DNA from: the human T2T-CHM13v2.0 reference genome, Homo sapiens
Assembly: GCF_009914755.1 (NCBI RefSeq)
Contig: NC_060927.1
Length of the DNA stretch: 64,000 nucleotides
Direction: 5' to 3' (one strand)
Shown here: piece by piece, positions 624 through 64,000 of the stretch
How the letters are laid out: each line of letters starts with the position of its first letter
How positions within the stretch are numbered: the stretch's first letter is position 1
Translations under genes and position numbers: made by a program
The notes under the pieces: model-generated
The model's input: the letters and a program-made list of their open reading frames with translations, nothing else
Told to the model about the DNA's origin: nothing
Databases searched by the model: none

Positions 624-640
624 TCACGTCTCAAACGAAG
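624..640 (-). promoter_or_regulatory. Degenerate CENP-B box, monomer M4
   Basis: The - strand reads CTTCGTTTGAGACGTGA. TTCG and the central A are intact, and CGGG has become CGTG. Confidence 0.85.
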
Positions 641-1132: not shown

Positions 1133-1149
1133 TCCCGTTTCCAATGAAG
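1133..1149 (-). promoter_or_regulatory. Degenerate CENP-B box, monomer M7
   Basis: The - strand reads CTTCATTGGAAACGGGA, one base from canonical CTTCGTTGGAAACGGGA (a CpG-to-CpA change in the essential TTCG). Confidence 0.9.
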
Positions 1150-1472
1150 GCCTCAAAAAAGTCCAAATATTTACTTGCAGATTCTACAAAAAGAGTGTTT
1201 CGTAACTGGTCTATCAAAAGAAAGGTTAAACTCAGTGAGTTGAACCCACACATCACAAAGTAGTTTCTGAGAATCATTCTGTCTAGTTTTCCTACGAAGA
1301 TATTGCCTTTTCTACCATAGGCCTCAAACGGCGCTAAATATCCACCTGGAAATTCTACACAAACTGAGTTTCAAAAGTGCTCTATTGAAAGGAAGCTTCA
1401 ACTCTGTGAGTTGAAGGTACACATCACAAAGAAGTTTCTGAGAATTCTTCTGTCTAGTTGTAAATGAAGAAA

Positions 1473-1489
1473 TCGCGTTTCACACGAAG
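1473..1489 (-). promoter_or_regulatory. Degenerate CENP-B box, monomer M9
   Basis: The - strand reads CTTCGTGTGAAACGCGA in this copy and CTTCGTGTGAAACGTGA in the others. The CGGG half is broken in both. Confidence 0.85.
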
Positions 1490-33400: not shown

Positions 33401-33479
33401 TTCTATGAAGAAATCCCGTTTCCAATGAAGGCCTCAAAAAAGTCCAAATATTTACTTGCAGATTCTACAAAAAGAGTGT

Positions 33480-40340: not shown

Positions 40341-40366
40341 TTTCTGAGAATCATTCTGTCTAGTTT
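40324..40366. other. Junction of a 5-mer (half-HOR) structural variant: an M8/M3 hybrid with 850 bp skipped
   Basis: M7-type ctcagtgaggtgaacccac runs through the shared block cacacatcacaaagtagtttctgagaatcattctgtctagtttt into M3-type tctatgaag...ttccaccacagg. Equivalent ORFs at 40017 and 40866 are 849 bp apart instead of 1699. Confidence 0.93.
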
Positions 40367-43300: not shown

Positions 43301-46300
43301 AAAGAGACACTTGCAAATTCCACAAAAAGAGGGTTTCAAAACTGCTATATCAAAGGAAGTTTAAACTCTGTAAGCTGAATGCAAGCATCACAAAACAGCT
43401 TCGGAGAATGAATCTGCCTAGTTTTTCTGTGAAGATATTTCTTTTTCTGTCATAGACCTCAAACCGCTGTGAAAATCTACTTGGAAATTCTACCAAAAGA
43501 GTATGTCAAAACTCTTCTATCGAAAGGAAGTTTCAACTCCATGAGTTAAATGCACATATCACAAATAGTTTTTTGAGGATTCTTCTTTGAAGTTTTATAT
43601 GAAGAAATCCCGTTTCCAAAGAGGGCCTCAGAAAAGTCCCAATATACCCTTGCAGATTCTACAAAAAGAGTTTTTCAAAACTGCTCTATCCAAAGAAAGG
43701 TTAAACTCTGTGAGTTGAAGGCACACATCACAAAGTAGTTTCTGAGAATCATTCTGTCTAGTTTTTGTATGAAGATATTGCCTTTTGCACCATAGGCCTC
43801 AAACGGCGCTAAATATCCACTTGGGAATTCTACAAAAAGAGAGTTACAAAACTGCTCTATCGAAAGAAAGCTGCAACTCTGCGAGTTGAAAGCACACATC
43901 GCGAAGTAGTTGATGAGAATTCTTCTGTCCAGTTTTGTAGGAAGAAGTCACGTCTCAAACGAAGGCCACAAAGAGGTCCAAATATCCACTTGGAGATTCA
44001 ACAAAAACAGTTTTTCAAAACCGCTCCGTCAAGAGGAATATTCAACTCAGAGAGTTGAAGGCAGGTATCACAAAGTAGTTTCCGACAACGCTTCTGTCTC
44101 GATTTTATGTGAAGACATTCCCTTTTGTACCACAGGCCTGAAAGCACTCTAAATATAGAATTGCAAATTCCACAAAAAGAGTGTTTAAAACCGCTCTATC
44201 CAAAGAAAGGTTTAACTCTGTCAGCTGAAGGCGCACATCACAAAGTAGCTTCAGAGAACAATTATGTCTAGTTTCTCTGTGAATATATTTTCTCTTCTAC
44301 ATAGGCCTGAAACCGCTCTAAATATTCACTTGGAAATTCTAGAAAAAGAATATTTCAACACTCTTCTATCAAAAGGAAGGTTGAACTCTGAGAGTTCAAT
44401 GCACACATCACAAAGAACTTTCTGGGAATTCTTCTGTCAAGGTTTCTATGAAGAAATCCCGTTTCCAATGAAGGCCTCAAAAAAGTCCAAATATTTACTT
44501 GCAGATTCTACAGAAAGAGTGTTTCATAACTGGTCTATCAAAAGAAAGGTTAAACTCAGTGAGTTGAACCCACACATCACAAAGTAGTTTCTGAGAATCA
44601 TTGTGTCTAGTTTTCCTACGAAGATATTGCCTTTTCTACCATAGGCCTCAAACGGCGCTAAATATCCACCTGGAAATTCTACAAAAACTGAGTTTCAAAA
44701 GTGCTCTATTGAAAGGAAGCTTCAACTCTGTGAGTTGAAGGTACACATCACAAAGAAGTTTCTGAGAATTCTTCTGTCTAGTTGTCAATGAAGAAATCAC
44801 GTTTCACACGAAGGCCACAAAGAGGTCCAAATATCCACTTGCAGATACTACAAAAAGAGTGTTTCAAAACGGCTCCATCAAGAGGAACGTTCAACTGTGT
44901 GCGTTGAATGCAAATATCACAAATAAGTTTCTGACAATACTTCCGTCTAGTTTTTATGTGAAGATATTTCCTTTCCTACTGTAGGCCTCAAAACGCTCTA
45001 AAGAGACACTTGCAAATTCCACAAAAAGAGGGTTTCAAAACTGCTATATCAAAGGAAGTTTAAACTCTGTAAGCTGAATGCAAGCATCACAAAACAGCTT
45101 CGGAGAATGAATCTGCCTAGTTTTTCTGTGAAGATATTTCTTTTTCTGTCATAGACCTCAAACCGCTGTGAAAATCTACTTGGAAATTCTACCAAAAGAG
45201 TATGTCAAAACTCTTCTATCGAAAGGAAGTTTCAACTCCATGAGTTAAATGCACATATCACAAATAATTTTTTGAGGATTCTTCTTTGAAGTTTTATATG
45301 AAGAAATCCCGTTTCCAAAGAGGGCCTCAGAAAAGTCCCAATATACCCTTGCAGATTCTACAAAAAGAGTTTTTCAAAACTGCTCTATCCAAAGAAAGGT
45401 TAAACTCTGTGAGTTGAAGGCACACATCACAAAGTAGTTTCTGAGAATCATTCTGTCTAGTTTTTGTATGAAGATATTGCCTTTTGCACCATAGGCCTCA
45501 AACGGCGCTAAATATCCACTTGGGAATTCTACAAAAAGAGAGTTACAAAACTGCTCTATCGAAAGAAAGCTGCAACTCTGCGAGTTGAAAGCACACATCG
45601 CGAAGTAGTTGATGAGAATTCTTCTGTCTAGTTTTGTAGGAAGAAGTCACGTCTCAAACGAAGGCCACAAAGAGGTCCAAATATCCACTTGGAGATTCAA
45701 CAAAAACAGTTTTTCAAAACCGCTCCGTCAAGAGGAATATTCAACTCAGAGAGTTGAAGGCAGGTATCACAAAGTAGTTTCCGACAACGCTTCTGTCTCG
45801 ATTTTATGTGAAGACATTCCCTTTTGTACCACAGGCCTGAAAGCACTCTAAATATAGAATTGCAAATTCCACAAAAAGAGTGTTTAAAACCGCTCTATCC
45901 AAAGAAAGGTTCAACTCTGTCAGCTGAAGGCGCACATCACAAAGTAGCTTCAGAGAACAATTATGTCTAGTTTCTCTGTGAATATATTTTCTCTTCTACA
46001 TAGGCCTGAAACTGCTCTAAATATTCACTTGGAAATTCTAGAAAAAGAATATTTCAACACTCTTCTATCAAAAGGAAGGTTGAACTCTGAGAGTTCAATG
46101 CACACATCACAAAGAACTTTCTGGGAATTCTTCTGTCAAGGTTTCTATGAAGAAATCCCGTTTCCAATGAAGGCCTCAAAAAAGTCCAAATATTTACTTG
46201 CAGATTCTACAGAAAGAGTGTTTCATAACTGGTCTATCAAAAGAAAGGTTAAACTCAGTGAGTTGAACCCACACATCACAAAGTAGTTTCTGAGAATCAT

Positions 46301-48000
46301 TCTGTCTAGTTTTCCTACGAAGATATTGCCTTTTCTACCATAGGCCTCAAACGGCGCTAAATATCCACCTGGAAATTCTACAAAAACTGAGTTTCAAAAG
46401 TGCTCTATTGAAAGGAAGCTTCAACTCTGTGAGTTGAAGGTACACATCACAAAGAAGTTTCTGAGAATTCTTCTGTCTAGTTGTCAATGAAGAAATCACG
46501 TTTCACACGAAGGCCACAAAGAGGTCCAAATATCCACTTGCAGATTCTACAAAAAGAGTGTTTCAAAACGGCTCCATCAAGAGGAACGTTCAACTCTGTG
46601 CGTTGAATGCAAATATCACAAATAAGTTTCTGACAATACTTCCGTCTAGTTTTTATGTGAAGATATTTCCTTTCCTACTGTAGGCCTCAAAACGCTCTAA
46701 ATATACACTTGCAAATTCCACCAAAAGGGGGTTTCAAAACTGCTCTATCAAAGGAAGTTTAAACTCTGTAAGCTGAATGCAAGCATCACAAAACAGCTTC
46801 GGAGAATGAATCTGCCTAGTTTTTCTGTGAAGATATTTATTTTTCAGCCATAGACCTCAAACCGCTGTGAAAATCCACTTGGAAATCCTACAAAAAGAGT
46901 ATGTCAAAACTCTTCTATCGAAAGGAAGTTTCAACTCCATGAGTTAAATGCACATATCACAAATAATTTTCTGAGGATTCTTCTTTGAAGTTTTATATGA
47001 AGAAATCCCGTTTCCAAAGATGGCCTCAGATAAGTCCCAATATACACTTGCAGATTCTACAAAAAGAGTCTTTCAAAACTGCTCTATCCAAAGAAAGGTT
47101 AAACTCTGTGAGTTGAAGGCACACATCACAAAGTAGTTTCTGAGAATCATTCTGTCTAGTTTTTCTATGAAGATATTGCCTTTTCCACCATAGGCCTCAA
47201 ACGGCGCTAAATATCCACTTGGGAATTCTACAAAAAGAGAGTTACAAAACTGCTCTATCGAAAGGAAGCTGCAACTCTGCGAGTTGAAAGCACATATCGC
47301 GAAGAAGGTGATGAGAATTCTTCTGTCTACATTTGTAGGAATAAGTCACGTCTCAAACGAAGGCCACAAAGAGGTCCAAATATCCACTTGGAGATTCCAC
47401 AAAAAGCGTTTTTCAAAACTGCTCCGTCAAGAGGAATATTCAACTCTGAGAGTTGAAGGCAGGTATCACAAAGTAGTTTCCGACAACGCTTCTGACTAGA
47501 TTTTATGTGAAGACATTCCCTTTTGTACCACAGGCCTGAAAGCACTCTAAATATAGAATTGCAAATTCCACAAAAAGAGTGTTTAAAACCGCTCTATCCA
47601 AAGAAAGGTTCAACTCTGTCAGCTGAAGGCGCACATCACAAAGTAGCTTCAGAGAACAATTATGTCTAGTTTCTCTGTGAAGATATTTTCTCTTCTACAT
47701 AGGCCTGAAACCGCTCTAAATATTCACTTGGAAATTCTAGAAAAAGAATATTTCAACACTCTTCTATCAAAAGGAAGGTTGAACTCTGAGAGTTCAATGC
47801 ACACATCACAAAGAAGTTTCTGGGAATTCTTCTGTCAAGGTTTCTATGGAGAAATCCCGTTTCCAATGAAGGCCTCAAAAAAGTCCAAATATTTACTTGC
47901 AGATTCTACAAAAAGAGTGTTTCATAACTGGTCTATCAAAAGAAAGGTTAAACTCAGTGAGGTGAACCCACACATCACAAAGTAGTTTCTGAGAATCATT
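40367..48000 (-). repeat. Duplicated copy of ~31.0-40.35 kb lacking one HOR
   Basis: Rare SNPs recur at offset 9344 (ccgcttagt 32201/41545; ggcaaacatc 32677/42021) and then at offset 7645 (ORF variants 34920/42565, 36619/44264, 38318/45963, 39639/47284, 40017/47662). Confidence 0.88.
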
Positions 48001-51000
48001 CTGTCTAGTTTTCCTACGAAGATATTGCCTTTTCTACCATAGGCCTCAAACGGCGCTAAATATCCACCTGGAAATTCTACAAAAACTGAGTTTCAAAAGT
48101 GCTCTATTGAAAGGAAGCTTCAACTCTGTGAGTTAAAGGTACACATCACAAAGAAGTTTCTGAGAATTCTTCTGTCTAGTTGTCAATGAAGAAATCACGT
48201 TTCACACGAAGGCCACAAAGAGGTCCAAATATCCACTTGCAGATTCTACAAAAAGAGTGTTTCAAAACGGCTCCATCAAGAGGAACGTTCAACTCTGTGC
48301 GTTGAATGCAAATATCACAAATAAGTTTCTGACAATACTTCCGTCTAGTTTTTATGTGAAGATATTTCCTTTCCTACTGTAGGCCTCAAAACACTCTAAA
48401 TAGACACTTGCAAATTCCACAAAAAGAGGGTTTCAAAACTGCTCTATCAAAGGAAGTTTAAACTCTGTAAGCTGAATGCAAGCATCACAAAACAGCTTCG
48501 GAGAATGAATCTGCCTAGTTTTTCTGTGAACATATTTCTTTTTCTGCCATAGACCTCAAACCGCTGTGAAAATCCACTTGGAAATCCTACAAAAAGAGTA
48601 TGTCAAAACTCTTCTATCGAAAGGAAGTTTCAACTCCATGAGTTAAATGCACATATCACAAATAATTTTCTGAGGATTCTTCTTTGAAGTTTTATATGAA
48701 GAAATCCCGTTTCCAAAGATGGCCTCAGATAAGTCCCAATATACACTTGCAGATTCTACAAAAAGAGTCTTTCAAAACTGCTCTATCCAAAGAAAGGTTA
48801 AACACTGTGAGTTGAAGGCACACATCACAAAATTAGTTTCTGAGAATCATTCTGTCTAGTTTTTCTATGAAGATATTGCCTTTTCCACCATAGGCCTCAA
48901 ACGGCGCTAAATATCCACTTGGGAATTCTACAAAAAGAGAGTTACAAAACTGCTCTATCGAAAGGAAGCTGCAACTCTGCGAGTTGAAAGCACACATCGC
49001 GAAGAAGTTGATGAGAATTCTTCTGTCTAGTTTTGTAGGAAGAAGTCACGTCTCAAACGAAGGCCACAAAGAGGTCCAAATATCCACTTGGAGATTCCAC
49101 AAAAAGGGTTTTTCAAAACTGCTCCGTCAAGAGGAATATTCAACTCTGAGAGTTGAAGGCAGGTATCACAAAGTAGTTTCCGACAACGCTTCTGTCTAGA
49201 TTTTATGTGAAGACATTCCCTTTTGTACCACAGGCCTGAAAGCACTCTAAATATAGAATTGCAAATTCCACAAAAAGAGTGTTTAAAACCGCTCTATCCA
49301 AAGAAAGGTTCAACTCTGTCAGCTGAAGGCGCACATCACAAAGTAGCTTCAGAGAACAATTATGTCTAGTTTCTCTGTGAAGATATTTTCTCTTCTACAT
49401 AGGCCTGAAACCGCTCTAAATATTCACTTGGAAATTCTACAAAAAGAATGTTTCAACACTCTTCTATCAAAAGGAAGGTTGAACTCTGAGAGTTCAATGC
49501 ACACATCACAAAGAAGTTTCTGGGAATTCTTCTGTCAAGGTTTCTTTGGAGAAATCCCGTTTCCAATGAAGGCCTCAAAAAAGTCCAAATATTTACTTGC
49601 AGATTCTACAAAAAGAGTGTTTCATAACTGGTCTATCAAAAGAAAGGTTAAACTCAGTGAGTTGAACCCACACATCACAAAGTAGTTTCTGAGAATCATT
49701 CTGTCTAGTTTTCCTACGAAGATATTGCCTTTTCTACCATAGGCCTCAAACGGCGCTAAATATCCACCTGGAAATTCTACAAAAACTGAGTTTCAAAAGT
49801 GCTCTATTGAAAGGAAGCTTCAACTCTGTGAGTTGAAGGTACACATCACAAAGAAGTTTCTGAGAATTCTTCTGTCTAGTTGTCAATGAAGAAATCACGT
49901 TTCACACGAAGGCCACAAAGAGGTCCAAATATCCACTTGCAGATTCTACAAAAAGAGTGTTTCAAAACGGCTCCATCAAGAGGAACGTTCAACTCTGTGC
50001 GTTGAATGCAAATATCACAAATAAGTTTCTGACAATTCTTCCGTCTAGTTTTTATGTGAAGATATTTCCTTTCCTACTGTAGGCCTCAAAACGCTCTAAA
50101 TAGACACTTGCAAATTCCACAAAAAGAGGGTTTCAAAACTGCTCTATCAAAGGAAGTTTAAACTCTGTAAGCTGAATGCAAGCATCACAAAACAGCTTCG
50201 GAGAATGAATCTGCCTAATTTTTCTGTGAAGATATTTCTTTTTCTGCCATAGACCTCAAACCGCTGTGAAAATCCACTTGGAAATTCTACAAAAAGAGTA
50301 TGTCAAAACTCTTCTATCGAAAGGAAGTTTCAACTCCATGAGTTAAATGCACATATCACAAATAATTTTCTGAGGATTCTTCTTTGAAGTTTTATATGAA
50401 GAAATCCCGTTTCCAAAGAGGGCCTCAGAAAAGTCCCAATATACCCTTGCAGATTCTACAAAAAGAGTTTTTCAAAACTGCTCTATCCAAAGAAAGGTTA
50501 AACTCTGTGAGTTGAAGGCACACATCACAAAGTAGTTTCTGAGAATCATTCTGTCTAGTTTTTCTATGAAGATATTGCCTTTTCCACCATAGGCCTCAAA
50601 CGGCGCTAAATATCCACTTGGGAATTCTACAAAAAGAGAGTTACAAAACTGCTCTATCGAAAGGAAGCTGCAACTCTGCGAGTTGAAAGCACACATCGCG
50701 AAGAAGTTGATGAGAATTCTTCTGTCTAGTTTTGTAGGAAGAAGTCACGTCTCAAACGAAGGCCACAAAGAGGTCCAAATATCCACTTGGAGATTCCACA
50801 AAAAGGGTTTTTCAAAACTGCTCCGTCAAGAGGAATATTCAACTCTGAGAGTTGAAGGCAGGTATCACAAAGTAGTTTCCGACAACGCTTCTGTCTAGAT
50901 TTTATGTGAAGACATTCCCTTTTGTACCACAGGCCTGAAAGCACTCTAAATATAGAATTGCAAATTCCACAAAAAGAGTGTTTAAAACCGCTCTATCCAA

Positions 51001-54000
51001 AGAAAGGTTCAACTCTGTCAGCTGAAGGCGCACATCACAAAGTAGCTTCAGAGAACAATTATGTCTAGTTTCTCTGTGAAGATATTTTCTCTTCTACATA
51101 GGCCTGAAACCGCTCTAAATATTCACTTGGAAATTCTACAAAAAGAATGTTTCAACACTCTTCTATCAAAAGGAAGGTTGAACTCTGAGAGTTCAATGCA
51201 CACATCACAAAGAAGTTTCTGGGAATTCTTCTGTCAAGGTTTCTTTGGAGAAATCCCGTTTCCAATGAAGGCCTCAAAAAAGTCCAAATATTTACTTGCA
51301 GATTCTACAAAAAGAGTGTTTCATAACTGGTCTATCAAAAGAAAGGTTAAACTCAGTGAGTTGAACCCACACATCACAAAGTAGTTTCTGAGAATCATTC
51401 TGTCTAGTTTTCCTACGAAGATATTGCCTTTTCTACCATAGGCCTCAAACGGCGCTAAATATCCACCTGGAAATTCTACAAAAACTGAGTTTCAAAAGTG
51501 CTCTATTGAAAGGAAGCTTCAACTCTGTGAGTTGAAGGTACACATCACAAAGAAGTTTCTGAGAATTCTTCTGTCTAGTTGTCAATGAAGAAATCACGTT
51601 TCACACGAAGGCCACAAAGAGGTCCAAATATCCACTTGCAGATTCTACAAAAAGAGTGTTTCAAAACGGCTCCATCAAGAGGAACGTTCAACTCTGTGCG
51701 TTGAATGCAAATATCACAAATAAGTTTCTGACAATTCTTCCGTCTAGTTTTTATGTGAAGATATTTCCTTTCCTACTGTAGGCCTCAAAACGCTCTAAAT
51801 AGACACTTGCAAATTCCACAAAAAGAGGGTTTCAAAACTGCTCTATCAAAGGAAGTTTAAACTCTGTAAGCTGAATGCAAGCATCACAAAACAGCTTCGG
51901 AGAATGAATCTGCCTAATTTTTCTGTGAAGATATTTCTTTTTCTGCCATAGACCTCAAACCGCTGTGAAAATCCACTTGGAAATTCTACAAAAAGAGTAT
52001 GTCAAAACTCTTCTATCGAAAGGAAGTTTCAACTCCATGAGTTAAATGCACATATCACAAATAATTTTCTGAGGATTCTTCTTTGAAGTTTTATATGAAG
52101 AAATCCCGTTTCCAAAGAGGGCCTCAGAAAAGTCCCAATATACCCTTGCAGATTCTACAAAAAGAGTTTTTCAAAACTGCTCTATCCAAAGAAAGGTTAA
52201 ACTCTGTGAGTTGAAGGCACACATCACAAAGTAGTTTCTGAGAATCATTCTGTCTAGTTTTTCTATGAAGATATTGCCTTTTCCACCATAGGCCTCAAAC
52301 GGTGCTAAATATCCACTTGGGAATTCTACAAAAAGAGAGTTACAAAACTGCTCTATCGAAAGGAAGCTGCAACTCTGCGAGTTGAAAGCACACATCGCGA
52401 AGAAGTTGATGAGAATTCTTCTGTCTAGTTTTGTATGAAGAAGTCACGTCTCAAACGAAGGCCACAAAGAGGTCCAAATATCCACTTGGAGATTCAACAA
52501 AAAGCGTTTTTCAAAACTGCTCCGTCAAGAGGAATATTCAACTCTGAGAGTTGAAGGCAGGTATCACAAAGTAGTTTCCGACAACGCTTCTGTCTAGATT
52601 TTATGTGAAGACATTCCCTTTTGTACCACAGGCCTGAAAGCACTCTAAATATAGAATTGCAAATTCCACAAAAAGAGTGTTTAAAACCGCTCTATCCAAA
52701 GAAAGGTTCAACTCTGTCAGCTGAAGGCGCACATCACAAAGTAGCTTCAGAGAACAATTATGTCTAGTTTCTCTGTGAAGATATTTTCTCTTCTACATAG
52801 GCCTGAAACCGCTCTAAATATTCACTTGGAAATTCTAGAAAAAGAATATTTCAACACTCTTCTATCAAAAGGAAGGTTGAACTCTGAGAGTTCAATGCAC
52901 ACATCACAAAGTAGTGTCTGGGAATTCTTCTGTCAAGGTTTATAAGAAGAAATCCAGTTTCCAATGAAGGCCTCAAAAAAGTCCAAATATTTACTTGCAG
53001 ATTCTACAAAAAGAGTGTTTCATAACTGGTCTATCAAAAGAAAGGTTAAACTCAGTGAGGTGAACCCACACGTCACAAAGTAGTTTCTGATAATCATTCT
53101 GTCTAGTTTTCCTACGAAGATATTGCCTTTTCTACCATAGGCCTCAAACGGCGCTAAATATCCACCTGGAAATTCTACAAAAACTGAGTTTCAAAAGTGC
53201 TCTATTGAAAGGAAGCTTCAACTCTGTGAGTTGAAGGTACACATCACAAAGAAGTTTCTGTGAATTCTTCTGTCTAGTTGTCAATGAAGAAATCACGTTT
53301 CACACGAAGGCCACAAAGAGGTCCAAATATCCACTTGCAGATTCTACAAAAAGAGTGTTTCAAAACGGCTCCATCAAGAGGAACGTTCAACTCTGTGCGT
53401 TGAATGCAAATATCACAAATAAGTTTCTGACAATACTTCCGTCTAGTTTTATGTGAAGATATTTCCTTTCCTATTGTAGGCCTCAAAACGCTCTAAAGAG
53501 ACACTTGCAAATTCCACAAAAAGAGGGTTTCAAAACTGCTCTATCAAAGGAAGTTTAAACTCTGTCAGCTGAATGCAAGCATCACAAAACAGCTTCGGAG
53601 AATGAATCTGCCTAGTTTTTCTGTGAAGATATTTCTTTTTCTGCCATAGACCTCAAACCGCTGTGAAAATGCACTTGGAAATTCTAGAAAAAGAGTATGT
53701 CAAAACTCTTCTATCGAAAGGAAGTTTCAACTCCATGAGTTAAATGCACATATCACAAATAATTTTCTGAGGATTCTTTTTTGAAGTTTTATATGAAGAA
53801 ATCCCGTTTCCAAAGATGGCCTCAGATAAGTCCCAATGTACACTTGCAGATTCTACAAAAAGAGTTGTTCAAAACTGCTCTATCCAAAGAAAGGTTAAAC
53901 TCTGTGAGTTGAAGGCACACATCACAAAGTAGTTTCTGAGAATCATTCTGTCTAGTTTTTCTATGAAGATATTGCCTTTTCCACCATAGGCCTCAAACGG

Positions 54001-54613
54001 CGCTAAATATCCACTTGGGAATTCTACAAAAAGAGAGTTACAAAACTGCTCTATCGAAAGGAAGCTGCAACTCTGCGAGTTGAAAGCACACATCGCGAAG
54101 AAGTTGATGAGAATTCTTCTGTCTAGTTTTGTATGAAGCAGTCACGTCTCAAACGAAGGCCACAAAGAGGTCCAAATATCCACTTGGAGATTCAACAAAA
54201 AGGGTTTTTCAAAACTGCTCCGTCAAGAGGAATATTCAACTCTGAGAGTTGAAGGCAGGTATCACAAAGTAGTTTCCGACAACGCTTCTGTCTAGATTTT
54301 ATGTGAAGACATTCCCTTTTGTACCACAGGCCTGAAAGCACTCTAAATATAGAATTGCAAATTCCACAAAAAGAGTGTTTAAAACCGCTCTATCCAAAGA
54401 AAGGTTCAACTCTGTCAGCTGAAGGCGCACATCACAAAGTAGCTTCAGAGAACAATTATGTCTAGTTTCTCTGTGAAGAAATTTTCTCTTCTACATAGGC
54501 CTGAAACCGCTCTAAATATTCACTTGGAAATTCTAGAAAAATAATATTTCAACACTCTTCTATCAAAAGGAAGGTTGAACTCTGAGAGGTCAATGCACAC
54601 ATCACAAAGTAGT

Positions 54614-54619
54614 GTCTGA
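54614..54619. other. Junction of a 9-mer structural variant (169-bp deletion of monomer M7)
   Basis: gtcaatgcacacatcacaaagtagtgtctg joins directly to agaatcattctgtctagttttcctacg. Equivalent ORFs at 53869 and 55398 are 1529 bp apart (1699 - 169 - 1). Confidence 0.92.
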
Positions 54620-57600
54620 GAATCATTCTGTCTAGTTTTCCTACGAAGATATTGCCTTTTCTACCATAGGCCTCAAACGGCGCTAAATATCCACCTGGAA
54701 ATTCTACAAAAACTGAGTTTCAAAAGTGCTCTATTGAAAGGAAGCTTCAACTCTGTGAGTTGAAGGTACACATCACAAAGAAGTTTCTGAGAATTCTTCT
54801 GTCTAGTTGTCAATGAAGAAATCACGTTTCACACGAAGGCCACAAAGAGGTCCAAATATCCTCTTGCAGATTCTACAAAAAGAGTGTTTCAAAACGGCTC
54901 CATCAAGAGGAACGTTCAACTCTGTGCATTGAATGCAAATATCACAAATAAGTTTCTGACAATACTTCCGTCTAGTTTTATGTGAAGATATTTCCTTTCC
55001 TAATGTAGGCCTCAAAACGCTCTAAAGAGACACTTGCAAATTCCACAAAAAGAGGGTTTCAAAACCGCTCTATCAAAGGAAGTTTAAACTCTGTCAGCTG
55101 AATGCAAGCATCACAAAACAGCTTCGGAGAATGAATCTGCCTAGTTTTTCTGTGAAGATATTTCTTTTTCTGCCATAGACCTCAAACCGCTGTGAAAATG
55201 CACTTGGAAATTCTAGAAAAAGAGTATGTCAAAACTCTTCTATCGAAAGGAAGTTTCAACTCCATGAGTTAAATGCACATATCACAAATAATTTTCTGAG
55301 GATTCTTCTTTGAAGTTTTATATGAAGAAATCCCGTTTCCAAAGATGGCCTCAGATAAGTTCCAATGTACACTTGCAGATTCTACAAAAAGAATTTTTCA
55401 AAACTGCTCTATCCAAAGAAAGTTTAAACTCTGTGAGTTGAAGGCACACATCACAAAGTAGTTTCTGAGAATCATTCTGTCTGGTTTTTCTATGAAGATA
55501 TTGCCTTTTCCACCATAGGCCTCAAACGGCGCTAAATATCCACTTGGGAATTCTACAAAAAGAGAGTTACAAAACTGCTCTATCGAAAGGAAGATGCAAC
55601 TCTGCGAGTTGAAAGCACACATCGCGAAGAAGTTGATGAGAATTCTTCTGTCTAGTTTTGTAGGAAGAAGTCACGTCTCAAACGAAGGCCACAAAGAGGT
55701 CCAAATCTCCACTTGGAGATTCAACAAAAAGAGTTTTTCAAAACTGCTCCGTCAAGAGGAATATTCAACTCTGAGAGTTGAAGGCAGGTATCACAAAGTA
55801 GTTTCCGACAACGCTTCTGTCTAGATTTTATGTGAAGACATTCCCTTTTGTACCACAGGCCTGAAAGCACTCTAAGTATAGAATTGCAAATTCCACAAAA
55901 AGAGTGTTTAAAACCGCTCTATCCAAAGAAAGGTTCAACTCTGTCAGCTGAAGGCGGACATCACAAAATAACTTCAGAGAACAATTATGTCAATTTTCTC
56001 TGTGAAGATATTTTCTCTTCTACATAGGCCTGAAACCGCTCTAAATATTCACTTGGAAATTCTAGAAAAAGAATATTTCAACACTCTTCTATCAAAAGGA
56101 AGGTTGAACTCTGAGAGTTCAATGCACACATCACAAAGAAGTCTCTGGGAATTCTTCTGTCAAGGTTTCTATGAAGAAATCCCGTTTCCAATGAAGGCCT
56201 CAAAAAAGTCCAAATATTTACTTGCAGATTCTACAAAAAGAGTGTTTCGTAACTGGTCTATCAAAAGAAAGGTTAAACTCAGTGAGGTGAACCAACACGT
56301 CACAAAGTAGTTTCTGAGAATCGTTCTGTCTAGTTTTCCTACGAAGATATTGCCTTTTCTACCATAGGCCTCAAACGGCGCTAAATATCCACCTGGAAAT
56401 TCTACAAAAACTGAGTTTCTAAAGTGCTCTATTGAAAGGAACCTTCAACTCTGTGAGTTGAAGGTACACATCACAAAGAAGTTTCTGAGAATTCTTCTGT
56501 CTAGTTGTCAATGAAGAAATCACGTTTCACACGAAGGCCACAAAGAGGTCCAAATATCCACTTGCAGATTCTACAAAAAGAGTGTTTCAAAACGGCTCCA
56601 TCAAGAGGAACGTTCAACTCTGTGCGTTGAATGCAAATATCACAAATAAGTTTCTGACAATACTTCCGTCTAGTTTTTATGTGAAGATATTTCCTTTCCT
56701 AATGTAGGCCTCAAAACGCTCTAAAGAGACACTTGCAAATTCCACAAAAAGAGGTTTTCAAAACTGCTCTATCAAAGGAAGTTTAAACTCTGTAAGCTGA
56801 ATGCAAGCATCACAAAACAGCTTCGGAGAATGAATCTGCCTAGTTTCTCTGTGAAGATATTTCTTTTTCTGCCATAGACCTCAAACCGCTGTGAAAATCC
56901 ACTTGGAAATTCTAGAAAAAGAGTATGTCAAAACTCTTCTATCGAAAGGAAGTTTCAACTCCATGAGTTAAATGCACATATCACAAATAATTTTCTGAGG
57001 ATTCTTCTTTGAAGTTTTATATGAAGAAATCCCGTTTCCAAAGATGGCCTCAGATAAGCCCCAATGTACACTTGCAGATTCTACAAAAAGAGTTTTTCAA
57101 AACTGCTCTATCCAAAGAAAGGTTAAACTCTGTGAGTTGAAGGCACACATCACAAAGTAGTTTCTGAGAATCATTCTGTCTAGTTTTTCTATGAAGATAT
57201 TGCCTTTTCCACCATAGGCCTCAAACGGCGCTAAATAACCACTTGGGAATTCTACAAAAAGAGAGTTACAAAACTGCTCTATCGAAAGGAAGCTGCAACT
57301 CTGCGAGTTGAAAGCACACATCGCGAAGAAGTTGATGAGAATTCTTCTGTCTAGTTTTGTAGGAAGAAGTCACGTCTCAAACGAAGGCCACAAAGAGGTC
57401 CAAATATCCACTTGGAGATTCAACAAAAAGCGTTTTTCAAAACTGCTCCGTCAAGAGGAATATTCAACTCTGAGAGTTGAAGGCAGGTGTCACAAAGTAG
57501 TTTCCGACAACGCTTCTGTCTAGATTTTATGTGAAGACATTCCCTTTTGTACCACAGGCCTGAAAGCACTCTAAATATAGAATTGCAAATTCCACATAAA

Positions 57601-58064
57601 GAGTGTTTAAAACCGCTCTATCCAAAGAAAGGTTCAACTCTGTCAGCTGAAGGCGCACATCACAAAGTAGCTTCAGAGAACACTTATGTCAAGTTTCTCT
57701 GTGAAGATATTTTCTCTTCTACATAGGCCTGAAACCGCTCTAAATATTCACTTGGAAATTCTAGAAAAAGAATATTTCAACACTCTTCTATCAAAAGGAA
57801 GGTTGAACTCTGAGAGTTCAATGCACACATCACAAAGAAGTCTCTGGGAATTCTTCTGTCAAGGTTTCTATGAAGAAATCCCGTTTCCAATGAAGGCCTC
57901 AAAAAAGTCCAAATATTTACTTGCAGATTCTACAAAAAGAGTGTTTCATAACTGGTCTATCAAAAGAAAGGTTAAACTCTGTGAGTTGAAGGCACACATC
58001 ACAAAGCAGTTTCTGAGAATCATTCTGTCCAGTTTTCCTACGAAGATATTGCCTTTTCTACCAC

Positions 58065-58100
58065 AGGCCTCAAGTGGATATTTAGCGCCGTTTGAGGCCT
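58065..58100. other. Inversion breakpoint and centre of the inverted repeat (18-nt spacer, 58074-58091)
   Basis: aggcctcaa (58065-58073) + gtggatatttagcgccgt + ttgaggcct (58092-58100). Complementarity continues outward on both sides. Confidence 0.95.
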
Positions 58101-61100
58101 ATCGTAGAAAAGGCAATATCTTCGTAGGAAAACTAGACAGAATGATTCTCAGAAACTACTTTGTGATGTGTGGGTTCACCTCACTGAGTTTAACCTTTCT
58201 TTTGATAGACCAGTTATGAAACACTCTTTTTGTAGAATCTGCAAGTAAATATTTGGACTTTTTTGAGGCCTTCATTGGAAACGGGATTTCTTCATAGAAA
58301 CCTTGACAGAAGAATTCCCAGAAACTTCTTTGTGATGTGTGCATTGAACTCTCAGAGTTCAACCTTCCTTTTGATAGAAGAGTGTTGAAATATTCTTTTT
58401 GTAGAATTTCCAAGTGAATATTAAGATCGGTTTCAGGCCTATGTAGAAGAGAAAATATCTTCACAGAGAAACTAGACATAATTGTTCTCTGAAGCTACTT
58501 TGTGATGTGCGCCTTCAGCTGACAGAGTTTAACCTTTCTTTGGATAGAGCGGTTTCAAACACTCTTTCTGTGGAATTTGCAATTCTATATTTAGAGTGCT
58601 TTCAGGCCTGTGGTACAAAAGGGAATGTCTTCACATAAAATCTAGACAGAAGCGTTGTCGGAAACTACTTTGTGATACCTGCCTTCAATTCTCAGAGTTG
58701 AATATTCCTCTTGATGGAGCAGTTTTGAAAAACGCTTTTTGTGGAATCGCCAAGTGGATATTTGGACCTCTTTGTGGCCTTCGTTTGAGACGTGACTACT
58801 TCATACAAAACTAGACAGAAGAATTCTCATCACCTTCTTCGCGATGTGTGCTTTCAACTCGCAGAGTTGCAGCTTCCTTTCGATAGAGCAGTTTTGTAAC
58901 TCTCTTTTTGTAGAATTTCCAAGTGGATATTTAGCGCCCTTTGAGGCCTATGGTGGAAAAGGCAATATCTTCATAGAAAAACTAGACAGAATGATTCTCA
59001 GAAACTACTTTGTGATGTGTGCCTTCAACTCACAGAGTTGAACCTTTCTTTTGATAGAGCAGTTTTGAAAAACTCTTTCTGTAGAATGTGCAAGTGTATA
59101 TTGGGACTTATCTGAGGCCATCTTTGGAAACGGGATTTCTTCATATAAAACTTCAAAGAAGAATCCTCAGAAAATTATTTGTGATATGTGCATTTAACTC
59201 GTGGAGTTGAAACTTCCTTTCGATAGAAGAGTTTTGAAATACTCTTTTTGTAGAATTTCCAAGTGGATTTTCACAGCGGTTTGAGGTCTATGGCAGAAAA
59301 AGAAATATCTTCACAGAAAAACTAGGCAGATTCATTCTCCGAAGCTGTTTTGTGATGCTTGCATTCAGCTGACAGAGTTTAAACTTCCTTTGATAGAGCA
59401 GTTTTGAAACCCTCTTTTTGTGGAATTTGCAAGTGTCTCTTTAGAGCGTTTTGAGGCCTACAGTAGGAAAGGAAATATCCTCACATAAAAACTAGACAGA
59501 AGTATTGTCTGAAACTTATTTGTGATATTTGCATTCAACGCACAGAGTTGAACATTCCTCTTGATGGAGCCGTTTTGAAACACTCTTTTTGTAGAATCTG
59601 CAAGTGGATATTTGGACCTCTTTTTGGCCTTCGTGTGAAACGTGATTTCTTCATTGACAACTAGACAGAAGAATTCTCAGAAACTTCTTTGTGATGTGTA
59701 CCTTCAACTCACAGAGTTGAAGCTTCCTTTCAATAGAGCACTTTTGAAACTCAGTTTTTGTAGAATTTCCAGGTGGATATTTAGCGCCGTTTGAGGCCTA
59801 TGGTAGAAAAGGCAATATCTTCGTAGGAAAACTAGACAGAATGATTCTCAGAAACTACTTTGTGATGTGTGGGTTCAACTCACTGAGTTTAACCTTTCTT
59901 TTGATAGACCAGTTATGAAACACTCTTTTTGTAGAATCTGCAAGTAAATATTTGGACTTTTTTGAGGCCTTCATTGGAAACGGGATTTCTTCATATAAAC
60001 CTTGACAGAAGAATTCCCAGAAACTTCTTTGTGATGTGTGCATTGAACTCTCAGAGTTCAACCTTCCTTTTGATAGAAGAGTGTTGAAATATTCTTTTTG
60101 TAGAATTTCCAAGTGAATATTTACAGCGGTTTCAGGCCTATGTAGAAGAGAAAATATCTTCACAGAGAAACTAGACATAATTGTTCTCTGAAGCTACTTT
60201 GTGATGTGCGCCTTTAGCTGACAGAGTTGAACCTTTCTTTGGATAGAGCGGTTTCAAACACTCTTTCTGTGGAATTTGCAATTCTATATTTAGAGTGCTT
60301 TCAGGCCTGTGGTACAAAAGGGAATGTCTTCACATAAAATCTAGACAGAAGCGTTGTCGGAAACTACTTTGTGATACCTGCCTTCAACTCTCAGAGTTGA
60401 GTAATCCTCTTGACGGAGCAGTTTTGAGAAACGCTTTTTGTGGAATCTCCAAGTGGATATTTGGACCTCTTTGTGGCCTTCGTTTGAGACGTGACTTCTT
60501 CATACAAAACTAGACAGAAGAATTCTCATCAACTTCTTTGCGATGTGTGCTTTCAACTCGCAGAGTTGCAGCTTCCTTTCGATAGAGCAGTTTTGTAACT
60601 CTCTTTTTGTAGAATTTCCAAGTGGATATTTAGCGCCGTTTGAGGCCTATGGTGGAAAAGGCAATATCTTCATAGAAAAACTAGACAGAATGATTCTCAG
60701 AAACTACTTTGTGATGTGTGCCTTCAACTCACAGAATTTAAACTTTCTTTTGATAGAGCAGTTTTGAAAAACTCTTTTTGTAGAATCTGCAAGTGTATAT
60801 TGGGACTTATCTGAGGCCATCTTTGGAAACGGGATTTCTTCATATAAAACTTCAAAGAAGAATCCTCAGAAAATTATTTGTGATATGTGCATTTAACTCG
60901 TGGAGTTGAAACTTCCTTTCGATAGAAGAGTTTTGAAATACTCTTTTTGTAGAATTTCCAAGTGGATTTTCACAGCGGTTTGAGGTCTATGGCAGAAAAA
61001 GAAATATCTTCACAGAAAAACTAGACAGATTCATTCTCCGAAGCTGTTTTGTGATGCTTGCATTCAGCTGACAGAGTTTAAACTTCCTTTGATAGAGCAG

Positions 61101-64000
61101 TTTTGAAACCCTCTTTTTGTGGAATTTGCAAGTGTCTCTTTAGAGCGTTTTGAGGCCTACAGTAGGAAAGCAAATATCTCCACATAAAAACTAGACAGAA
61201 GTATTGTCAGAAAGTTATTTGTGATATTTGCATTCAACGCACAGAGTTGAACATTCCTCTTGATGGAGCCGTTTTGAAACACTCTTTTTGTAGAATCTGC
61301 AAGTGGATATTTGGACCTCTTTGTGGCCTTCGTGTGAAACGTGATTTCTTCATTTACAACTAGACAGAACAATTCTCAGAAACTTCTTTGTGATGTGTAC
61401 CTTCAACTCACAGAGTTGAAGCTTCCTTTCAATAGAGCACTTTTGAAACTCAGTTTTTGTAGAATTTCCAGGTGGATATTTAGCGCCGTTTGAGGCCTAT
61501 GGTAGAAAAGGCAATATCTTCGTAGGAAAACTAGACAGAATGATTCTCAGAAACTACTTTGAGATGTGTGGGTTCAACTCACTGAGTTTAACCTTTCTTT
61601 TGATAGACCAGTTATGAGACACTCTTTTTGTAGAATCTGCAAGTAAATATTTGGACTTTTTTGAGGCCTTCATTGGAAACGGGATTTCTTCATAGAAACC
61701 TTGACAGAAGAATTCCCAGAAACTTCTTTGTGATGTGTGCATTGAACTCTCAGAGTTCAACCTTCCTTTTGATAGAAGAGTGTTGAAATATTCTTTTTGT
61801 AGAATTTCCAAGTGAATATTTAGAGCGGTTTCAGGCCTATGTAGAAGAGAAAATATCTTCACAGAGAAACTAGACATAATTGTTCTCTGAAGCTACTTTG
61901 TGATGTGCGCCTTCAGCTGACAGAGTTGAACCTTTCTTTGGATAGAGCGGTTTTAAACACTCTTTCTGTGGAATTTGCAATTCTATATTTAGAGTGCTTT
62001 CAGGCCTGTGGTACAAAAGGGAATGTCTTCACATAAAATCTAGACAGAAGCGTTGTCGGAAACTACTTTGTGATACCTGCCTTCAACTCTCAGAGTTGAA
62101 TATTCCTCTTGACGGAGCAGTTTTGAAAAACGCTTTTTGTGGAATCTCCAAGTGGATATTTGGACCTCTTTGTGGCCTTCGTTTGAGACGTGACTTCTTC
62201 ATACAAAACTAGACAGAAGTATTCTCATCACCTTCTTCGCGATGTGTGCTTTCAACTCGCAGAGTTGCAGCTTCCTTTCGATAGAGCAGTTTTGTAACTC
62301 TCTTTTTGTAGAATTTCCAAGTGGATATTTAGCGCCGTTTGAGGCCTATGGTGGAAAAGGCAATATCTTCATAGAAAAACTAGACAGAATGATTCTCAGA
62401 AACTACTTTGTGATGTGTGCCTTCAACTCACAGAGTTTAACCTTTCTTTTGATTGAGCAGTTTTGAAAAACTCTTTCTGTAGAATCTGCAAGTGTATATT
62501 GGGACTTATCTGAGGCCATCTTTGGAAACGGGATTTCTTCATATAAAACTTCAAAGAAGAATCCTCAGTAAATTATTTGTGATATGTGCATTTAACTCGT
62601 GGAGTTGAAACTTCCTTTCGATAGAAGAGTTTTGAAATACTCTTTTTGTAGAATTTCCAAGTGGATTTTCAGAGCGGTTTGAGGTCTATGGCAGAAAAAG
62701 AAATATCTTCACAGAAAAACTGGGCAGATTCATTCTCTGAAGCTGTTTTGTGATGCTTGCATTCAGCTTACAGAGTTTAAACTTCCTTTGATAGAGCAGT
62801 TTTGAAACCCTCTTTTTGTGGAATTCGCAAGTGTCTCTTTAGAGCGTTTTGGGGCCTACAGTAGGAAAGGAAATATCCTCACATAAAAACTAGACAGAAG
62901 TATTGTCAGAAACTCATTTGTGATATTTGCATTCAACGCACAGAGTTGAACATTCCTCTTGATGGAGCCGTTTTGAAACACTCTTTTTGTAGAATCTGCA
63001 AGTGGATATTTGGACCTCTTTGTGGCCTTCGTGTGAAACGTGATTTCTTCATTGACAACTAGAGAGAAGAATTCTCAGAAACTTCTTTGTGATGTGTACC
63101 TTCAACTCACAGAGTTGAAGCTTCCTTTCAATAGAGCACTTTTGAAACTCAGTTTTTGTAGAATTTCCAGGTGGATATTTAGCGCCGTTTGAGGCCTATG
63201 GTAGAAAAGGCAATATCTTCGTAGGAAAACTAGACAGAATGATTCTCAGAAACTACTTTGTGATGTGTGGGTTCAACTCACTGAGTTTAACCTTTCTTTT
63301 GATAGACCAGTTATGAAACACTCTTTTTGTAGAATCTGCAAGTAAATATTTGGACTTTTTTGAGGCCTTCATTGGAAACGGGATTTCTTCATAGAAACCT
63401 TGACAGAAGAATTCCCAGAAACTTCTTTGTGATGTGTGCATTTAACTCTCAGAGTTCAACCTTCCTTTTGATAGAAGAGTGTTGAAATATTCTTTTTGTA
63501 GAATTTCCAAGTGAATATTTAGAGCGGTTTCAGGCCTATGTAGAAGAGAAAATATCTTCACAGAGAAACTAGACATAATTGTTCTCTGAAGCTACTTTGT
63601 GATGTGCGCCTTCAGCTGACAGAGTTTAACCTTTCTTTGGATAGAGCGGTTTCAAACACTCTTTCTGTGGAATTTGCAATTCTATATTTAGAGTGCTTTC
63701 AGGCCTGTGGTACAAAAGGGAATGTCTTCACATAAAATCTAGACAGAAGCGTTGTCGGAAACTACTTTGTGATACCTGCCTTCAACTCTCAGAGTTGAAC
63801 ATTCCTCTTGACGGAGCAGTTTTGAAAAACGCTTTTTGTGGAATCTCCAAGTGGATATTTGGACCTCTTTGTGGCCTTCGTTTGAGCCGTGACTTCTTCA
63901 TACAAAACTAGACAGAAGAGTTCTCATCACCTTCTTCGCGATGTGTGCTTTCAACTCGCAGAGTTGCAGCTTCCTTTCGATAGAGCAGTTTTGTAACTCT
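58074..64000 (+). repeat. Same 10-mer alpha-satellite HOR in inverted orientation (about 3.5 units, open at the window end)
   Basis: The sequence is the reverse complement of the left array (cttcattggaaacggga, ctttgtgatgtgtg). The repeat-derived ORFs swap strand, and the 1699-bp period is kept (58479, 60178, 61877; 58596, 60295, 61994, 63693). Confidence 0.97.

What the first reader, a model, noticed from the sequence alone, without database searches (positions are those of the whole stretch)
54980..61185. In-register fold-back inversion: a multi-kilobase quasi-palindrome with an 18-nt spacer
Seen: the array changes strand at ~58073, and both sides of the junction lie in the same monomer (M8) only 18 nt apart. 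Homologous positions sum to 116165 (57686+58479, 57321+58844, 55987+60178, 55622+60543), so the arms are colinear for ~3.1 kb each. They continue to the window end with a 170-bp shift caused by left-arm deletions (54093+62242 = 116335). Established: inversions occur in alpha-satellite arrays but are uncommon, and long inverted repeats with short spacers can form hairpins or cruciforms and are fragile. Inference: two random breakpoints in a 1699-bp unit would rarely fall within ~20 bp of the same phase, so a fold-back mechanism (template switch or hairpin-capped break) is more likely than a simple two-break inversion. The arms carry many differences, so the event is old and probably not an assembly or read fold-back artefact.
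Basis: partly seen in the sequence, partly recalled or inferred. Interest (0 to 1): 0.8.

Follow-up and report, generated by a model that had tools for sequence, protein, structure and literature searches.

The report
Inverted alpha-satellite block with fold-back junction
The strand switch is real and marks one end of a roughly 255-kb upside-down block of the same centromeric repeat, apparently copied in by a replication slip rather than cut and flipped; the inversion was already annotated, but its base-level anatomy points to how it arose.

Summary
**Observation: confirmed.**
- Both arms start at the same HOR position, separated by 18 nt that belong to the right arm.

**The feature is much larger than the finding.**
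- The inverted orientation runs about 254.7 kb, to a second junction, J2, at chr3:91,142,737.
- J2 is not the reciprocal product of a two-break inversion. The inverted block ends at HOR phase 700.
- The downstream array resumes exactly where the left arm stopped, with a 2-6 nt overlap.
- So the block is an inverted insertion into a phase-continuous array.

**Relations between the arms.**
- The arms are about 97.2% identical in every register, with no mirror-diagonal signal.
- The left arm and the first 31 kb of the inverted block form one HOR subtype clade: 100/100 support and 7 derived fixed sites.

**Best reading (about 0.6).** A replicative template switch jumped to the opposite strand 18 nt ahead, later returned to the departure site, and the inverted copy then expanded in place.

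**Prior knowledge.** Altemose et al. already list an inversion in an inactive chr3 HOR. I found no description of the junction anatomy in the papers I searched.

**Rating.** Moderate interest; a new member of a known kind.

The parts
1..58073 (-). Left arm A: 1699-bp 10-mer alpha-satellite HOR array in the background orientation. It reaches left of the window to at least chr3:90,806,001. It ends at HOR phase 1 (...GGCCTCAA).
   Evidence: 35 reference-HOR matches, the first at the junction starting at reference position 1. Units at 90,806,001-90,816,000 are 97.5-98.2% identical to the reference unit.
58074..58091 (+). The 18-nt spacer of junction J1. It is HOR phases 1682-1699 in the inverted orientation, contiguous with the right arm.
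   Evidence: The same 18-mer precedes TTGAGGCC in the in-phase units of both arms. Its reverse complement is what the downstream array C starts with at J2.
58092..64000 (+). Right arm R: the same HOR inverted.

**Extent.** It continues beyond the window to window-equivalent 312737 (chr3:91,142,737), about 254,664 bp in all.

**Junction J2.** It ends at J2, which lies OUTSIDE the window at chr3:91,142,737-91,142,741. R stops at HOR phase 700 (...GTTTGAAAC), followed by CT. Array C then resumes at phase 2 (AA+ACGGCG...), or at phase 6 reading CCT-AA with a 1-nt deletion.
   Evidence: - Searches cover contiguous sequence to 264000.
- add a sample at 91,100,001 and 17 samples every 2.5 kb, all in R orientation.
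- Searches cover contiguous 91,134,001-91,151,300 with J2.
- In one search the 91-nt J2 query gave one full-length hit among 40 scored of 1174 candidates.
53148..54676 (-). Left-arm HOR unit lacking one monomer (1529 bp).
   Evidence: (anchor spacing 680 instead of 850), and (diagonal 116335).
40405..41253 (-). Half unit (849 bp, 5 monomers) in the left arm.
   Evidence: Y 16821-17669, flanked by full units.
33608..35307 (-). Boundary inside the left arm. To the left lies a very homogeneous subtype (mean 10.9 differences per unit). Towards the junction lies a more heterogeneous subtype (mean 35.5).
   Evidence: (15-mer sharing drops at bin 34001).

Best explanation
Window 58073/58074 is junction J1 of an inverted duplication-insertion inside the inactive 10-mer alpha-satellite HOR array on the p side of the chr3 centromere.

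**Proposed steps (inferred).**
1. A nascent strand copying the array left its template at HOR phase 1.
2. It re-primed on the opposite strand 18 nt ahead, at phase 1682, and copied the array backwards for at least one unit, ending at phase 700.
3. It then returned to its original template 1-5 nt behind the point of departure.
4. This left an inverted copy between two flanks that remain continuous in HOR phase.
5. The inverted copy later expanded by ordinary tandem-array turnover to about 254.7 kb. Both arms were remodelled independently, which erased any unit-by-unit mirror likeness.

**Shown:** both junctions, their phases, the phase continuity of the flanks, and the subtype clade that straddles J1.

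**Inferred:** the template-switch mechanism, that both junctions arose in a single event, and the later expansion.
For: **J1 is in HOR register.** It has an 18-nt spacer contiguous with the inverted arm; chance about 2.2%.

**Flank continuity at J2.**
- Array C starts with AA plus the exact reverse complement of the J1 spacer. That is the phase where A stopped, with a 2-6 nt overlap.
- For unrelated breakpoints, an offset within 6 nt either way has p of about 13/1699 = 0.8%.

**A two-break inversion predicts otherwise.** It would need R to end at phase 1699 and C to start at 1681. The observed values are 700 and 2.

**A and the first 18 R units (31 kb) are closest relatives despite opposite orientation.**
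- 9 fixed sites separate A+Rp (Rp = those first 18 R units) from the rest, and 7 of them are derived by outgroup.
- 0 fixed sites support the orientation partition (A and C against all of R).
- IQ-TREE on 46 of 169 sequences gives A+Rp 100/100.
- The R units next to J1 (X1, X3) are sister to A at 93/85.
- Some alleles are shared only between A-proximal units and X1-X3.

**Uniqueness.** The J1 and J2 junction sequences each gave a single full-length hit among the scored candidates.
Against: - **No perfect microhomology at J1.** The expected base before GTGGAT is G (CCAG) and the observed base is A (TCAA).
- **J2 is untidy.** It has a 2-nt filler or a 1-nt deletion.
- **No mirror-diagonal identity excess**. 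Every one of the 15 left-arm and 22 right-arm units listed has its four nearest relatives in its own arm. Direct copying of one arm from the other is therefore seen only at clade level.
- **Distant parts of R.** The distal 223 kb of R and the R end at J2 are not in the A+Rp clade. This needs either a long initial copy spanning several subtypes since lost from A, or a separate history.
- **No mirrored layering.** The leftmost A units sampled are A-type only.
- **Direction of copying.** A is monophyletic and nested within Rp, which would equally fit A being the copy.
- **Assembly correctness** could not be checked with reads.
Confidence: 0.6

Rival explanations
1. Capture of a linear fragment of the same array, from a sister chromatid or homologue, in inverted orientation at a staggered double-strand break by end joining. 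The near-register at J1 would be chance.
For: - The flanks are phase-continuous with a 2-6 nt overlap that could be a filled-in stagger.
- Both junctions lack clear microhomology, and J2 has 2 nt of filler, as end joining gives.
- A local source would also explain the related subtypes.
Against: - Either fragment end landing within 18 nt of the break phase has a chance of only about 4%.
- It does not predict that the R units nearest J1 are the closest relatives of A.
Confidence: 0.17
2. Two separate events. An older rearrangement placed the inverted block next to C, making J2. Later a fold-back (snap-back of a broken or stalled 3' end) copied the left end of the inverted block to create arm A, making J1. 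The A/C phase continuity would be coincidence.
For: - The spacer is contiguous with R, as expected if R is the original and A the copy.
- A is monophyletic (99/96) and nested inside Rp, sister to X1+X3.
- Rp has no private fixed sites and A has 4.
- The distal R subtypes lie outside the A+Rp clade.
Against: - A ending at phase 1 while C starts at phase 2-6 would be a coincidence of about 0.8%.
- There is no inverted microhomology for snap-back priming.
- The diverged alpha satellite left of A is in the same orientation as A and C, which fits A being part of the original array.
Confidence: 0.13
3. Inter-arm gene conversion. J1 and J2 date from one old event, and the likeness of A and the first 31 kb of R arose later by conversion between the inverted arms near the palindrome centre.
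For: - The A+Rp clade straddles J1.
- The Rp/Rd boundary (Rd = the distal part of R) is an in-register hybrid unit with a mosaic transition, as a conversion or recombination tract end would look.
Against: - No cross-arm nearest neighbours today.
- No mirror signal.
- The arms still differ by about 2.8%, so any exchange stopped long ago.
- This rival changes only the reading of the clade, not the origin of the junctions.
Confidence: 0.05
4. A simple two-break inversion with coincidental phase, or an assembly or read fold-back artefact.
For: Only that a strand switch exists. No reads could be inspected here.
Against: - J2 is not the reciprocal junction.
- The arms differ at about 48 of 1699 positions and carry private variants, unlike a chimeric-read palindrome.
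- An inversion in an inactive chr3 HOR is reported independently in passages of bioRxiv 10.1101/2021.07.12.452052.
Confidence: 0.04

Closest known systems
Inversions annotated in inactive alpha-satellite HOR arrays of T2T-CHM13 (Altemose et al., bioRxiv 10.1101/2021.07.12.452052; passages read)
   Same: [quoted passage not shown] 2B shows chr3). The strand switch here lies in an HOR array beside the chr3 centromere, so it is very probably the same feature.
   Different: The passages I read give no junction sequences, HOR phases, flank continuity or mechanism. The figure and Tables S6-S7 were not visible to me, so I could not confirm identical coordinates.
Fold-back inverted duplications of human chromosomes (Hermetz et al. 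2014, PMC3907307; passages read)
   Same: A non-inverted and an inverted copy face each other across a single-copy spacer.
   Different: - Their spacers are 766-70,466 bp with 2-8 bp of inverted microhomology, and the product passes through a dicentric with a terminal deletion.
- Here the spacer is 18 nt and perfect microhomology is 0 nt.
- Here the original orientation resumes in phase after the inverted block.
Four-point template-switch model of replication (Loytynoja and Goldman 2017, PMC5453318; search listing only) and FoSTeS/MMBIR (recalled)
   Same: A nascent strand leaves its template, copies the opposite strand nearby, and returns close to the departure point, inserting an inverted copy.
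   Different: Those events are described at tens of bases, or between unique sequences at kilobase to megabase scale. Here the copy lies in a tandem array and has since grown to about 255 kb, and microhomology at the switch points is not evident.
ODIRA inverted triplication (Brewer et al. 2024, PMC10766186; abstract read)
   Same: Forward, inverted and forward arrangement, with a palindromic short-spacer junction formed at a replication fork.
   Different: ODIRA predicts that both junctions are local fold-backs. J2 joins HOR phase 700 to phase 2-6, so it is not in register at HOR level. ODIRA also does not predict phase continuity of the flanks.
chr3 10-mer HOR array 'hor2' (Croat Med J 2024, PMC11157248; passages read)
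   Same: A regular 10-mer HOR array on T2T-CHM13 chr3 of roughly 3,900 monomers, matching the array analysed here.
   Different: That paper's text has no occurrence of 'invers', so the strand switch is not discussed there.

Membership tests
Simple balanced two-break inversion | The distal junction is the reciprocal product. The inverted block should end at phase 1699 and the downstream array should start at phase 1681. | tested here: not met
   the block ends at phase 700 and the downstream array starts at phase 2 (or 6).
Inverted insertion or duplication into a continuous array | The flanking arrays share one orientation and are continuous in repeat phase across the insert. | tested here: met
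   A ends at phase 1 and C begins at phase 2-6, with the reverse complement of the J1 spacer. Both are in the background orientation.
Fold-back inverted duplication (DSB/hairpin type, Hermetz 2014) | [quoted passage not shown] | tested here: met
   the spacer is 18 nt, far below their range of 766 bp to 70 kb.
Fold-back inverted duplication (DSB/hairpin type, Hermetz 2014) | Inverted microhomology of at least 2 bp at the spacer boundary. | tested here: not met
   in-phase units read CCAG before GTGGAT, while the junction reads TCAA. That gives 0 nt of perfect microhomology in either direction of copying.
Fold-back inverted duplication (DSB/hairpin type, Hermetz 2014) | [quoted passage not shown] | tested here: not met
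   the background array resumes in phase after the block, so the event is interstitial.
Replicative template switch (four-point model, FoSTeS/MMBIR) | The return point lies close to the departure point on the original template. | tested here: met
   a 2-6 nt overlap between the end of A and the start of C.
Replicative template switch (four-point model, FoSTeS/MMBIR) | The inserted segment is an inverted copy of the sequence adjacent to the switch. | tested here: inconclusive
   For: the A+Rp clade at 100/100, 7 derived fixed sites, and X1+X3 sister to A. Against: no mirror-pair excess, and the distal part of R lies outside the clade.
Replicative template switch (four-point model, FoSTeS/MMBIR) | Microhomology at the switch points. 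| tested here: inconclusive
   J1 has 0 nt perfect microhomology (CAA against CAG is imperfect). J2 has either 1 nt (C) with a 1-nt deletion or a 2-nt filler. About 2.8% later divergence could have altered the junction bases.
ODIRA inverted triplication | Both junctions are local palindromic fold-backs. | tested here: not met
   J1 qualifies. J2 joins phase 700 to phase 2-6.
Re-insertion of an excised HOR circle | The insert has an integral number of units, so its end phase equals its start phase minus 1. | tested here: not met
   The insert starts at phase 1682 and ends at phase 700.
Altemose et al. inversion in an inactive chr3 HOR | Same coordinates and same array as in their Fig. 2B and Tables S6-S7. 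| not testable with these tools
   Figures are not held and the bioRxiv supplements are closed. Only the text statement was seen.

The most novel reading that the evidence does not exclude
Strand switches inside human HOR arrays are in general not inversions. They would be inverted duplications seeded by a local replication-fork template switch that returns to its departure site and then grows by array turnover.

It would follow that a long palindrome with an 18-nt spacer and about 97% identical arms can persist in the germline for millions of years when embedded in centromeric heterochromatin. The junction would also act as a barrier that splits array homogenisation into independent domains.
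Probability: 0.25. Interest if true: 0.65.

Novelty: new member of a known kind. Interest (0 to 1): 0.45.

Why it matters
- **Mechanism.** Satellite-array 'inversions' are catalogued in complete genomes, but their mechanism is largely unaddressed. In-register J1, an out-of-register J2 and phase-continuous flanks discriminate between cut-and-flip, fragment capture and replicative template switching. The same phase test can be applied to every HOR strand switch in human and ape T2T assemblies.
- **Homogenisation.** It also gives a dated natural experiment on how an orientation boundary partitions homogenisation.
  - The junction-adjacent units are the most diverged of their arms, with 14 and 19 private changes in Y1 and Y2 against 4 in Y4.
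  - One HOR subtype nevertheless straddles the boundary.
- **Limits.** It has no gene content or known functional role. The array is inactive according to the literature.

Tried and rejected
The result is flat at about 97.2% with no excess on the mirror diagonal. The arms are not unit-for-unit copies today.
2. **3-nt CAA microhomology at J1.** I first suspected this from the alpha consensus and rejected it. In-phase units of both arms read CCAG before the spacer. The CCAA variant belongs to the paralogous half-unit 849 nt away.
3. **Simple inversion, circle re-insertion and ODIRA.** Each fails a phase prediction (see the membership test).
4. **Mirrored subtype layering at the left edge of A.** The units at 90,806,001-90,816,000 are all A-type, so there is no support for it and no refutation either.
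5. **Clustered private mutations next to J1** as a mark of error-prone synthesis. Y1 has 4 of 14 private changes in its first 100 columns. Y2 and Y3 show changes in the same columns one and two units away. The pattern is therefore phase-specific rather than junction-specific.
6. **Rooting of the unit tree** with diverged flanking alpha satellite. Only weak support resulted: C sister to A+Rp at 85/66, and 4 against 2 against 1 polarised sites. The order of the deep splits is left open.
7. **Generality test on the chr1 active-array inversion.** Strand switches were bracketed only to 250-kb intervals.
9. **Monomer-level near-register of J2** (about 14-20 nt) was considered as evidence and dropped. 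The chance is about 24% on a 170-nt monomer.


Full report
**What is in the window**

The whole 64-kb window is one alpha-satellite array.
- The higher-order repeat (HOR) is 1699 bp, or 10 monomers.
- Its two 5-monomer halves are 85% identical. Other monomer shifts give 73-81%.
- The array was described on T2T-CHM13 chr3 as a regular 10-mer HOR, 'hor2' (PMC11157248, passages).

**Junction J1**

- At 58073/58074 the + strand reads ...GGCCTCAA | GTGGATATTTAGCGCCGT | TTGAGGCC....
- Tandem Repeats Finder ends one array at 58073 and starts the other at 58071.
- I counted 15-mers of a left-arm unit in 2-kb bins. They are forward-only in the 29 bins before 58001 and mixed in bin 58001. They are reverse-only in all 102 bins from 60001 to 264000, covering the window plus 200 kb fetched downstream.
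- Read away from the junction, both arms align to a reference unit from its position 1. The register claim and the sum 116165 are therefore correct.
- The 18-nt 'spacer' is the ordinary HOR sequence that precedes TTGAGGCC in the right-arm orientation. The right arm simply extends 18 nt further than the left.
- A uniform null gives 37/1699 = 2.2% for an offset of 18 nt or less.
- As single-stranded DNA, the central 219 nt fold into a hairpin of -95.9 kcal/mol. Shuffles give -20.7 +/- 3.4, z = -22. Any such palindrome would do this.

**The feature is far larger than reported**

- The same HOR at 95-98% identity was found in the background (left-arm) orientation at 90,820,001.
- It was found in the inverted orientation at 91,100,001.
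- It was again in the background orientation at 91,150,001, 91,200,001, 91,300,001 and 91,400,001.
- The 11 samples from 90,560,001 to 90,800,001 are only 75-86% like it, though in the background orientation. The samples at 91.5-91.7 Mb gave no alpha-satellite match.
- Nineteen 300-bp samples narrowed the second switch, and one of them contains it.
- Contiguous sequence from 91,134,001 to 91,151,300 was then read.
- The left arm reaches at least 90,806,001 at 97.5-98.2% identity.
- The layout is therefore:
  - array A: at least 82 kb, background orientation;
  - block R: 90,888,074-91,142,737, 254,664 bp, inverted;
  - array C: at least 220 kb, background orientation (copies to 91,365,264; sample at 91,400,001).
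- Caveat: between 91,094,001 and 91,134,000 only samples were seen, one of 1.8 kb and then 300 bp every 2.5 kb.

**Junction J2 decides between the models**

- R ends ...GTTTGAAAC at HOR phase 700.
- CT follows, and then C begins AA+ACGGCGCTAAATATCCAC... That is phases 2, 1, 1699, 1698 and so on.
- This is the exact reverse complement of the J1 spacer, and it is the sequence that should have followed the last base of A.
- Read with a 1-nt deletion (CCT-AA for CCTCAA), the overlap between the end of A and the start of C is 5-6 nt. Read strictly, it is 2 nt.
- A two-break inversion that gives J1 as observed requires R to end at phase 1699 and C to start at 1681.
- Removing R would rejoin A and C almost seamlessly. 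For unrelated breakpoints an offset within 6 nt either way has p of about 0.8%.
- R is therefore an inverted insertion into a continuous array.
- A re-inserted HOR circle would need an end phase of 1681, so it is excluded.
- An ODIRA triplication would need J2 in register, so it is excluded at the HOR level.
- Both junction sequences gave one full-length match each among the candidates scored: 40 of 1447 and 40 of 1174.

**Relations between repeat units**

*No mirror signal.*
- I cut 33 left-arm and 116 right-arm full units and aligned them. I later added 4 units at the R end, 5 at the start of C and 6 rotated samples, 164 in all.
- Mirror pairs are not special. Over 17 pairs the mean is 48.2 differing columns, against 47.9 for non-mirror pairs. 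8648 of 10000 permutations were at least as low.
- For all 15 left-arm and 22 right-arm units listed, the four nearest relatives lie in the same arm.
- The arms are about 97.2% identical in any register.

*A subtype clade straddles J1.*
- At subtype level there is a clear pattern. Mean differences are shown below.

| Comparison | Mean differing columns |
|---|---|
| A vs first 18 R units (Rp, 31 kb) | 47-48 |
| Rp vs distal R (Rd) | 69 |
| A vs Rd | 74-76 |
| A vs C | 89-99 |

- Fixed-site partitions: A+Rp against the rest has 9 sites. Rd+Re (Re = the R end at J2) against the rest has 6, Re+C has 3, and Rd+C has 2. The orientation partition (A and C against all of R) has 0.
- Five diverged flanking samples served as outgroup. 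Of the 9 A+Rp sites, 7 are derived, 1 is ancestral and 1 is unclear.
- IQ-TREE was run on 46 of the 169 sequences. I took every second or sixth A unit, every second Rp unit, every twelfth Rd unit, all Re and C units, and 3 outgroups. The results:
  - A+Rp 100/100;
  - A monophyletic 99/96 and nested in Rp;
  - A sister to X1+X3, two of the R units nearest J1 (first and third), at 93/85;
  - Rd+Re 89/72;
  - C sister to A+Rp at only 85/66.
- Two alleles are shared by nearly all A-proximal units and, among the R units listed, only by X1 or by X2+X3.
- The Rp/Rd boundary is an in-register hybrid unit with a mosaic transition. It lies at chr3:90,918,667-90,920,365, outside the window.

**Mechanism**

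*Best reading.*
- The combination is an in-register short-spacer junction, a return to the departure site, and closest kinship of the sequences on either side of J1.
- It fits a replicative template switch described by four points:
  1. departure at phase 1;
  2. re-priming on the opposite strand 18 nt ahead;
  3. the end of inverted copying at phase 700, at least one unit back;
  4. a return 1-5 nt behind the departure point.
- R then expanded and both arms turned over independently.
- This is the logic of the four-point model (PMC5453318, search listing only) and of FoSTeS/MMBIR (recalled).

*Weak points.*
- J1 has no perfect microhomology: CCAG is expected and TCAA is observed.
- J2 has filler or a small deletion.
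- The distal three quarters of R lie outside the A+Rp clade.
- A is nested in Rp, which would equally suit A being the copy.

*Rivals.*
- Fragment capture at a staggered break, with chance register of about 4%.
- Two separate events, leaving the A/C continuity as a coincidence of about 0.8%.
- Later inter-arm conversion to explain the clade.

*Comparison with the DSB/hairpin fold-back of Hermetz et al.* (PMC3907307, passages). It shares the spacer logic. It differs in spacer size (766 bp-70 kb), in microhomology (2-8 bp) and in its terminal-deletion outcome.

**Age (inference)**

- A and Rp differ by about 2.8%.
- With recalled rates of 0.5-2 x 10^-9 per site per year this means several million to tens of millions of years. 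It is an upper bound, because diversity may predate the event.
- The structure is therefore probably fixed in humans. This was not tested.

**Prior knowledge**

- Altemose et al. [quoted passage not shown] The existence of the strand switch is therefore not new.
- Their figures and supplements were not visible to me.
- Full-text searches turned up no base-level description of HOR-array inversion junctions.
- Nor did passages of two pangenome centromere preprints: 10.64898/2026.07.22.740206 and PMC13684623.
- Subscription journals and supplements are outside these searches.

**Verdict**

- A simple inversion and an artefact are unlikely.
- A template-switch inverted duplication is the best-supported origin (about 0.6).
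- It is a new member of a known kind, of moderate interest.

Noticed in passing
window 1-33600 versus 33600-58073: The left arm holds two layers. A very homogeneous distal subtype has a mean of 10.9 differences per 1.7-kb unit. A heterogeneous junction-proximal layer has a mean of 35.5, with near-identical unit groups repeated (for example Y7, Y12, Y13 and Y8 within 1-6 differences). This looks like a recent multi-unit duplication of about 8.5 kb.
   Followed up: partly
chr3:90,918,667-90,920,365 (window-equivalent 88,667-90,365, outside the window): An in-register hybrid HOR unit marks the switch from the A-like subtype to the distal subtype inside the inverted block. It shows a mosaic of diagnostic sites over about 150 columns.
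   Followed up: partly
window 40405-41253, and right arm at about chr3:90,973,024-90,973,872: Each arm contains one 849-bp half unit (5 monomers), at non-mirrored distances from J1: about 16.8 kb on the left and about 84.9 kb on the right.
   Followed up: no
J2, L065 positions about 215-237 (chr3:91,142,715-91,142,737): The inverted block ends inside CCTTCGTTTGAAAC. This lies at the monomer position where CENP-B-box-like motifs sit (motif recalled, not tested). At monomer level, all three break positions fall within about 40 nt of the same monomer region (phases -18, +1/+2 and +20). The chance of that is roughly 15%, so it is not evidence.
   Followed up: partly
G000:C1 (chr1) 124,050,301-124,300,000 and 125,800,301-126,050,000: The alpha-satellite orientation flips within these two intervals of the chr1 array. 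This is consistent with the published 1.7-Mb inversion.
   Followed up: partly
chr3:90,560,001-90,801,800 (samples L030-L040): Alpha satellite to the left of the array is only 75-86% like the 10-mer HOR but has the same orientation as arm A. Identities of about 84-86% equal the likeness between the two halves of the 10-mer, so these may be related 5-mer-based repeats.
   Followed up: no
chr3:91,500,001-91,701,800 (samples L046-L048): No alpha-satellite match, with G+C of 0.31-0.36. A different, AT-rich satellite follows the 10-mer array on the centromere side.
   Followed up: no
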